Assembly: GCA_050084515.1 (NCBI GenBank)
Contig: CM114271.1
Location: 15,314,001-15,378,000 of the forward strand
Direction: 5' to 3'
From: Blasia pusilla
Taxonomy: Eukaryota
DNA: 64,000 nt
Shown: in pieces, positions 7,423 to 8,000 of the stretch
How positions within the stretch are numbered: position 1 is the stretch's first letter
Layout: every line of letters begins with the position of its first letter
The notes under the pieces: model-generated
What the model saw: the letters and a program-made list of their open reading frames with translations, nothing else
Told to the model about the DNA's origin: nothing
Database searches by the model: none
Position numbers and translations under genes: made by a program

Positions 7423-8000
7423 AATTATACGCTCATGATTGCTGATATTCCTCATAGCTTCAAGTTACGGAGCAAAAAATGATGATGTTCCATTTTCAGA
7501 GAAAGACATTTTTGAGATGATAGAGAGTTTCAAGAAGAATAATTCTAGCAAGTTCTCAAGATTTGTAATTTTCCATTGAGTCAAGTAAATTGGTTGTTTT
7601 TTCTGACTTCCATAAAATTTGTAACATGAGGTTGGAGTCCCGAATGTGGATGAAGCCAAACGTGAAAAGCTAGATTCTTGGGAACTAGTTGGCATTTTCT
7701 TTCGATATGTGGATCAATGAATGCCACCGCATCTTGGGGAAAGGAACTAGAGAATTTATTTCTTTGAAGCTTTTGAGCGTAGATCAAATATAGTGTGTGT
7801 GAAAGCTCTAACCCAAAAATGGGTATACTTGGATGATAGCATAGTCAATGCATATCAAAATGGAGTCAAGACAATGATATGGTTCATTTTACATTTCTTG
7901 CTTCTAGGAGATTTGGTTATGGATTTGTGTATAGGCAAAAATAAAAAAACAAAAGCCTCATTGTACCAAGGTAGACATTGTTATTCAATAGAAAAAATAC
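7423..8000 (+). pseudogene. Degenerate beta-class DNA amino-methyltransferase (N6-adenine/N4-cytosine, N6_N4_Mtase-like)
   Basis: Across frameshifts and stops: YTLMIADIPH (motif IV, DPPY-like, 7441), WMKPN (7647), VNAYQNG (HPTQKP-like), HF...GDLVMDLCIG (motif I, 7907) and KASLYQGRHCYSIE (motif II). The catalytic motif precedes the SAM-binding motifs, as in the beta class. Confidence 0.6.

What the first reader, a model, noticed from the sequence alone, without database searches (positions are those of the whole stretch)
7423..8000. Second, unrelated methyltransferase relic: beta-class N6-adenine/N4-cytosine type
Seen: ADIPH, WMKPN, NAYQ, GDLVMDL and GRHCYSIE in the permuted order of bacterial beta-class amino-MTases, intronless and broken, within TE debris. 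Known: this class is mostly prokaryotic; a bacteria-derived 4mC methyltransferase is described in Marchantia sperm and another in bdelloid rotifers. Inference: this is cargo of an unrecognised DNA transposon or a horizontally acquired gene. The D-type motif IV leans towards 6mA rather than SPPY-type 4mC.
Basis: partly seen in the sequence, partly recalled or inferred. Interest (0 to 1): 0.7.

Follow-up and report, generated by a model that had tools for sequence, protein, structure and literature searches.

The report
Dead transposon-borne DNA methyltransferase gene
This is the broken remnant of a bacterial-style DNA-methylating gene that an old jumping gene carried around this genome, a kind of cargo already described in seaweeds and seen here with relatives in land plants and a stonewort.

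Summary
The motifs are real. Window ~7130-7997 is the decayed C-terminal half of a ParB-like + beta-class amino-methyltransferase gene; it scores 95 bits against a profile of intact relatives, versus 3.2 for the best of 200 shuffles. It is one of 31 broken copies found. In 11 of 30 other copies it lies tail-to-tail with a DUF7869 gene, probably a Sola1-like transposase (recalled, untested), so it is most likely transposon cargo, not a recent bacterial transfer. Relatives occur in Chara, Riccia, Adiantum and Ginkgo; their models match CcrM-type methyltransferases plus a ParB fold. Motif IV is D-type, never SPPY, so 6mA is likelier; untested. The window copy is dead: frameshifts, stops, wrecked SAM loop, no ParB or transposase half. 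The same genome has a younger 12.3-kb Mutator-like element carrying a distant ParB-methyltransferase gene, transcribed and spliced at low level. This cargo is published for brown and red algae (PMC12477816); nine searches showed no land-plant report. Verdict: new member of a known kind.

The parts
7129..7341 (+). Decayed coding stretch preceding the methyltransferase domain (linker after the missing ParB-like domain)
   Evidence: DNA similarity to other family copies from 7027-7129 onward; profile match begins at about 7135
7342..7503 (+). Methyltransferase N-terminal part with catalytic motif IV, DIPH at 7444-7455 (family mostly DIPY)
   Evidence: profile columns 4-57, 26 bits; motif census
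7469..7576 (+). Second piece, after a frameshift near 7470
   Evidence: tblastn to P0003/P0004/P0005/P0012; matches other copies
7590..7754 (+). Third piece (WMKPN), another frame, with two in-frame stops
   Evidence: profile columns 88-128, 19.7 bits
7751..7997 (+). Fourth piece: NAYQ (family NPYQKP), degenerate SAM-binding motif I at 7922-7948 (glycine loop lost), GRHC..IE
   Evidence: family profile aligns here to M.RsrI HPTQKP...DFFAGSG...GRN (E 0.12)
8008..8327 (+). Unrelated repeat abutting and truncating the gene: hAT-type (DUF659) transposase fragment
   Evidence: dispersed matches limited to this stretch; a relative (L114) hits PF04937 at E 1.5e-8; the window's own frames gave no DUF659 hit
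6263..6849 (.). Non-coding stretch with short repeated motifs, possibly internal repeats of the element (weak)
   Evidence: 63-77% similarity upstream of two other family copies; local motif enrichment

Best explanation
The stretch is a dead fragment of the accessory gene of an old DNA transposon family (family A). The intact gene encoded an N-terminal ParB/Srx-fold domain, a helical linker and a beta-class (permuted) amino-methyltransferase with a D-[IFAL]-P-Y catalytic motif, and faced a DUF7869 gene, probably a Sola1-like transposase, tail to tail. Likely working of the intact protein (inferred, not shown): the ParB-like domain loads it on the element's own DNA and the methyltransferase puts N6-methyladenine (about 60%; 4mC about 15%; catalytically dead binder about 25%) on the element, favouring its expression or transposition against host 5mC silencing. 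The window copy does nothing now: it lost the ParB half and the transposase half, has at least three frameshifts, in-frame stops and a destroyed SAM loop, and abuts a hAT fragment.
For: Shown: a profile of 17 genomic pieces finds 214 proteins at E<=1e-3; 40 of 42 scanned carry PF01555, 37 over the cut-off. A profile of 26 relatives hits beta-class structures at E to 3e-14. Models of two relatives match CcrM (Foldseek E 1e-15; Z 23.2, rmsd 2.6, 216 aligned); residues 99-236 of P0063 match PadC ParB-like (Z 9.0, rmsd 2.9, 97 aligned), KorB and sulfiredoxin. Four other genomic copies keep the ParB-like part upstream on the same strand, a fifth inverted. 31 dispersed copies, none intact. DUF7869 lies downstream on the opposite strand (E 1.4e-25 in L086, 8.6e-4 in L082); leaving out the query's own locus, 6 of 30 copies have that DNA within 3 kb and 11 of 30 within 25 kb, 0 in the opposite arrangement, chance expectation 0.003 and 0.03. 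Mismatch by codon position 0.477/0.399/0.569 against third-minus-second gaps of 0.04-0.05 in neutral simulations points to past purifying selection. Same layout published for Sola1-1_Ec32 of Ectocarpus (PMC12477816, passages).
Against: No intact element, terminal repeats or target-site duplication were found for family A. That DUF7869 is a transposase, and Sola1-like, rests on recalled motifs; a PDB search gave nothing useful. The window copy itself has no DUF7869 half nearby, and 19 of 30 other copies showed no link within 25 kb. The genomic surroundings of the Chara, Riccia, Adiantum and Ginkgo relatives were not seen. No activity or methylation data. A1+A2 subfamily monophyly has support of only 0.57.
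Confidence: 0.8

Rival explanations
1. Same origin, but the cargo protein is a pseudo-enzyme that binds element DNA or RNA without methylating, like the inactive methyltransferase of DIRS elements.
For: Motif IV has I/F/A/L for the first proline. Family B departs further: DLPS in 22 of 30 loci and DLVGLSGA[ST] in 23 of 30. DIRS precedent (PMC4738411, passage).
Against: Intact family A relatives keep D-x-P-Y and D-x-x-x-G-[ST]-G; phage beta-class genes with DLPY exist (L159), though their activity was not checked.
Confidence: 0.25
2. A host gene family acquired from bacteria and domesticated, as for Marchantia DN4MT1 or rotifer N4CMT; the copies are pseudogenes picked up passively by transposons.
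For: Annotated gene models exist in Chara, Riccia, Adiantum and Ginkgo; past purifying selection.
Against: No intact copy among 31 found; fixed tail-to-tail link with DUF7869; no SPPY; the Chara models are many and diverged.
Confidence: 0.08
3. A recent bacterial or phage insertion, contamination, or cargo of an endogenous DNA virus.
For: Phage beta-class genes match the family profile; one hit is labelled a bacterial MAG (P0102, 3-kb contig).
Against: Copies on many contigs at 57-82% DNA identity, heavily decayed; phage hits are weak and fall outside the clade; the only conserved neighbour identified is DUF7869.
Confidence: 0.04

Closest known systems
Sola1-1_Ec32 accessory gene of Ectocarpus (PMC12477816; passages read)
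   Same: ParB-like domain fused to an N4/N6 DNA methyltransferase, on the strand opposite the transposase of a large DNA transposon; proposed there to bind and modify its own element.
   Different: Here the host is a different lineage, all copies found are dead, and Sola1 membership is unproven. Sequence kinship with the Ectocarpus protein was not tested (sequence not held).
Plavaka accessory genes PAG2/PAG3 of red algae (bioRxiv 10.1101/2025.02.11.637652; passages read)
   Same: PF01555 methylase and ParB-like domains as transposon cargo that moves among superfamilies (Plavaka, Mutator, Zisupton), next to tandem inverted repeats.
   Different: There the methylase is fused to SET and ParB to an oxygenase, in separate genes; here ParB and methylase are one gene and no SET or oxygenase was seen.
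Bacterial beta-class N6-adenine methyltransferases (CcrM, M.RsrI, M.MboIIA, M1.HpyAVI)
   Same: Fold and motif order.
   Different: About 20% identity; D-[IFAL]-P-Y for DPPY; ParB-like extension; eukaryotic mobile context.
Marchantia DN4MT1a/b and bdelloid N4CMT (bioRxiv 10.1101/2021.02.12.428880, PMC8885841, PMC10406627; passages read)
   Same: Eukaryotic beta-class amino-methyltransferases of prokaryotic ancestry; N4CMT is a fold match.
   Different: They have SPPY, make 4mC and are host genes; this family has a D-type motif and is transposon cargo.

Membership tests
Beta-class amino-methyltransferase (PF01555) | Catalytic motif IV upstream of SAM-binding motif I | tested here: met
   7444 before 7922
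Beta-class amino-methyltransferase (PF01555) | Profile or fold match | tested here: met
   Met through relatives: 40 of 42 hit PF01555, fold match to CcrM. The window copy alone has no Pfam hit.
Beta-class amino-methyltransferase (PF01555) | Intact catalytic and SAM-binding motifs in this copy | tested here: not met
   DIPH, and glycine loop lost; frameshifts and stops
Beta-class amino-methyltransferase (PF01555) | Methyl transfer to adenine N6 or cytosine N4 | not testable with these tools
   No assay or modification calls available
SPPY-type 4mC enzymes (DN4MT1, N4CMT) | SPPY motif IV | tested here: not met
   0 of 17 readable genomic copies (of 31) and 0 of 37 readable hits (of 150)
ParB + N4/N6 methyltransferase transposon accessory proteins | N-terminal ParB-like domain fused to the methyltransferase | tested here: met
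   Family level: Z 9.0 to PadC; ParB_N and DUF3723 look-alikes; four genomic copies. Absent from the window copy.
ParB + N4/N6 methyltransferase transposon accessory proteins | Carried in a DNA transposon opposite the transposase | tested here: inconclusive
   Link to DUF7869 is strong but its transposase identity is recalled; family B has target-site duplications
ParB + N4/N6 methyltransferase transposon accessory proteins | Common descent with the algal proteins | not tested
   Algal sequences were not in hand
Sola1 transposons (family A element) | DDD transposase | tested here: inconclusive
   PF25273 match; motif resemblance to Sola1 recalled; PDB search uninformative
Sola1 transposons (family A element) | Terminal inverted repeats and 4-bp target-site duplication (PMC10741241, passage) | tested here: inconclusive
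   Ends not reached; shared sequence runs on beyond the DUF7869 gene
Mutator/MULE (family B element) | 7-12 bp target-site duplication (PMC10741241, passage) | tested here: met
   9 and 10 bp in the 2 complete copies of 6 examined
Mutator/MULE (family B element) | MULE transposase domain | tested here: inconclusive
   SWIM finger only at E 0.036; no MULE Pfam hit; motif resemblance recalled

The most novel reading that the evidence does not exclude
Streptophyte DNA transposons of at least two superfamilies carry their own ParB-guided amino-methyltransferases, and the younger family in this genome is still transcribed and spliced and writes 6mA or 4mC on its own copies. That would be a transposon-encoded, non-5mC self-marking system in plants, a source of true 6mA there, and a reservoir from which host amino-methyltransferases could be domesticated.
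Probability: 0.25. Interest if true: 0.85.

Novelty: new member of a known kind. Interest (0 to 1): 0.5.

Why it matters
Whether plant DNA carries enzymatic 6mA, and who writes it, is disputed (own knowledge); PMC4738411 says land plants have few N6A methyltransferases (passage). This relic points to an overlooked family with intact-looking members in a fern, a gymnosperm, a liverwort and Chara, extending cargo known from algae, and gives named proteins and a young element on which self-methylation can be tested. The window copy itself is inert.

Tried and rejected
Pfam on the window's own pieces: no PF01555. Word-indexed homologue searches with a family A piece and a family B piece: nothing at E<=1e-3. 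The PF01555 genome search returned a different family (B); B matches the family A profile only around motif I (E 5e-4 to 0.02), its terminal repeat is absent from the window, and its transposase piece does not match DUF7869, so the window copy is not a B element. Metagenome scan with P0004: one 2-kb locus, no context. Viral contigs: ordinary phage beta-class genes in the 4 best loci inspected of 80. Prokaryote genomes were not scanned (one search did not run). The block beyond DUF7869 in element A has no Pfam match. DUF7869 against PDB: nothing useful. No RNA holder listed by the index for the family B stretch. Window-copy expression was not tested. Earlier-findings look-ups by sequence and place were empty. 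Literature searches for a land-plant report; none shown. Iyer et al. 2011, cited by PMC12477816 for green algae, was not read, and no supplements were opened (Bostrychia Table 6, Ectocarpus and PMC4738411 supplements could list plant members).

Full report
Observation. The window's pieces give no PF01555 hit alone, so motifs by eye were not proof. The window is G000:C1:15314001-15378000 in a 390-Mb, 26-contig genome; the organism was not identified, and a plant host is inferred from the relatives.

The family in this genome. Searches with window and relative pieces gave 31 distinct loci, a lower bound. None has an uninterrupted domain; the two without stops cover only 96 and 20 of 247 profile columns. 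DNA identity to the window is 57-82%. Motif IV is readable in 17 of 31: D first in 10, N in 3, E in 3, T in 1, S in none. Between-copy mismatch is 0.477, 0.399 and 0.569 at codon positions 1, 2 and 3 (36,522 codon pairs); three neutral simulations through the same pipeline gave third-minus-second gaps of 0.04-0.05 against 0.17, so the source lineages were under protein-level selection before the copies died.

What the protein is. A profile of 17 genomic pieces has M.RsrI as best PDB match, weakly (E 0.12), but finds 214 proteins among 1.84 billion, 29 at E<=1e-10. Of the 150 listed I scanned 42: 40 carry PF01555, 37 over the cut-off. Of 30 clusters looked up, 8 are named plants or algae (Chara 4, Adiantum 2, Riccia 1, Ginkgo 1), 1 is labelled a bacterial MAG and 21 are unnamed; four more Chara proteins share the N-terminal part. 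A model of P0004 (pLDDT 81.7) matches CcrM at E 1e-15, then N4CMT and M.BceJIV. A model of the long relative P0063 adds a ParB/Srx fold at residues 99-236: PadC Z 9.0, rmsd 2.9, 97 aligned, then KorB and sulfiredoxin. Against a profile of 18 such relatives the window scores 95.4 bits, the best of 200 shuffles 3.2. Motif IV was readable in 37 of 150 hits: D first in 35, none SPPY. The tree used 66 rows with at least 150 of 247 columns (15 of 31 genomic copies, 40 of 150 hits, 11 phage; the rest dropped). The window groups with ten other genomic copies (0.984); these, a second subfamily and four unnamed proteins form a clade (0.956); the Ginkgo, Adiantum and some unnamed proteins join at 0.91; deeper nodes are weak, the root is an arbitrary phage row, and no donor can be named.

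The element. Four copies keep the ParB-like part upstream on the same strand. DNA downstream is shared among copies and encodes DUF7869 on the opposite strand. Excluding the locus that supplied the query, 6 of 30 copies have this DNA within 3 kb and 11 of 30 within 25 kb in one arrangement, none in the opposite one; chance predicts 0.003 and 0.03. One more copy (C5:33550813) faces a PF25273 hit about 1.7 kb away. DUF7869 is itself abundant: 150 of 150 scored candidates pass the cut-off, so most such genes belong to other families. Its motifs resemble Sola1-type transposases as I recall them; no call confirms this. Shared sequence continues past the gene and no ends were found. The window copy is a fragment: homology runs from about 7030-7130 to 7997, a hAT-type fragment follows at 8008-8327, and no DUF7869 half lies in the window.

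A second family. PF01555 gave 143 matches among 150 scored of 848 candidates, 7 over the cut-off; at least 28 of the 30 loci fetched belong to a different, GC-richer family B. Six copies examined are 84-91% alike; the 2 complete ones span about 12.3 kb with a 30-bp inverted repeat near the ends and 9-10-bp target duplications, which fits Mutator. One strand has a transposase-like gene with a weak SWIM hit; the other has a DGNHR (ParB-like, by recall) exon and a methyltransferase with DLPS. RNA reads from three runs of the same species label laid 218, 273 and 227 reads from 6-12% of each run, mostly on one strand, with a GT..AG joint in 7 reads across all three that joins the ParB-like exon in frame to the next. 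Against: no read was 99% alike, over half run on into unlike sequence, no joint reached the methyltransferase exons, and no silent control stretch was laid. This shows low-level, spliced transcription of some B copies, not an active enzyme.

Mechanism. Shown: domain content, fold, linkage, decay. Inferred: the intact protein is targeted to its own element by the ParB-like domain and methylates it, most likely at adenine N6, to help the element against host silencing. The D-type motif only tilts the odds, and a non-catalytic role remains open, more so for family B.

Comparison and novelty. PMC12477816 describes a ParB-like + N4/N6 methyltransferase gene opposite the transposase in Sola1-1_Ec32 and proposes self-modification (passages); the Bostrychia preprint describes PF01555 and ParB-like cargo moving among superfamilies (passages). 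PMC4738411 (passages and section 8) lists no such land-plant clade in what I read. Nine searches showed no land-plant report; subscription papers and supplements were not seen. Verdict: real, dead, a new streptophyte member of a recently recognised and untested kind of transposon cargo. Interest 0.5.

Noticed in passing
G000:C8 about 14964270-14976570 (L072/L073) and G000:C3 (L076/L077); L014-L043: Family B: 12.3-kb Mutator-like element with 9-10-bp target duplications, internal palindromic repeats, and a spliced, transcribed ParB-like + methyltransferase gene with DLPS; at least 143 PF01555 matches in the genome.
   Followed up: partly
The genome has 5,347 PF00145 candidates, 123 of 123 scored over the cut-off, suggesting a large retrotransposon-borne C5 methyltransferase family.
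   Followed up: partly
G000 contigs C20 and C23: The four strongest PF00145 hits are stop-free and lie on two high-numbered contigs; possibly bacterial contigs in the assembly, not checked.
   Followed up: no
window 34,978-35,814 (+): Copia reverse transcriptase fragment (RVT_2, E 7e-43).
   Followed up: no
L082:7747-9246 (G000:C1 about 15608250-15609750), also L262, L064, L063: Conserved, apparently coding block beyond the DUF7869 gene in element A, on the same strand as it, with no Pfam match: a possible further exon or accessory gene.
   Followed up: partly
G000:C13 634 kb, 681 kb and 855 kb: Three family A copies share several kb of flank, so they arose by segmental duplication.
   Followed up: no
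P0063 residues 95-290: The ParB-like domain has look-alike clusters recorded from molluscs, sponges and ascomycetes (DUF3723, 31% of members), hinting at a eukaryote-wide mobile family; a lead only.
   Followed up: no
window 16,500-16,847 and 17,815-18,141 (-): Two near-identical open frames about 1.3 kb apart, a duplicated repeat.
   Followed up: no
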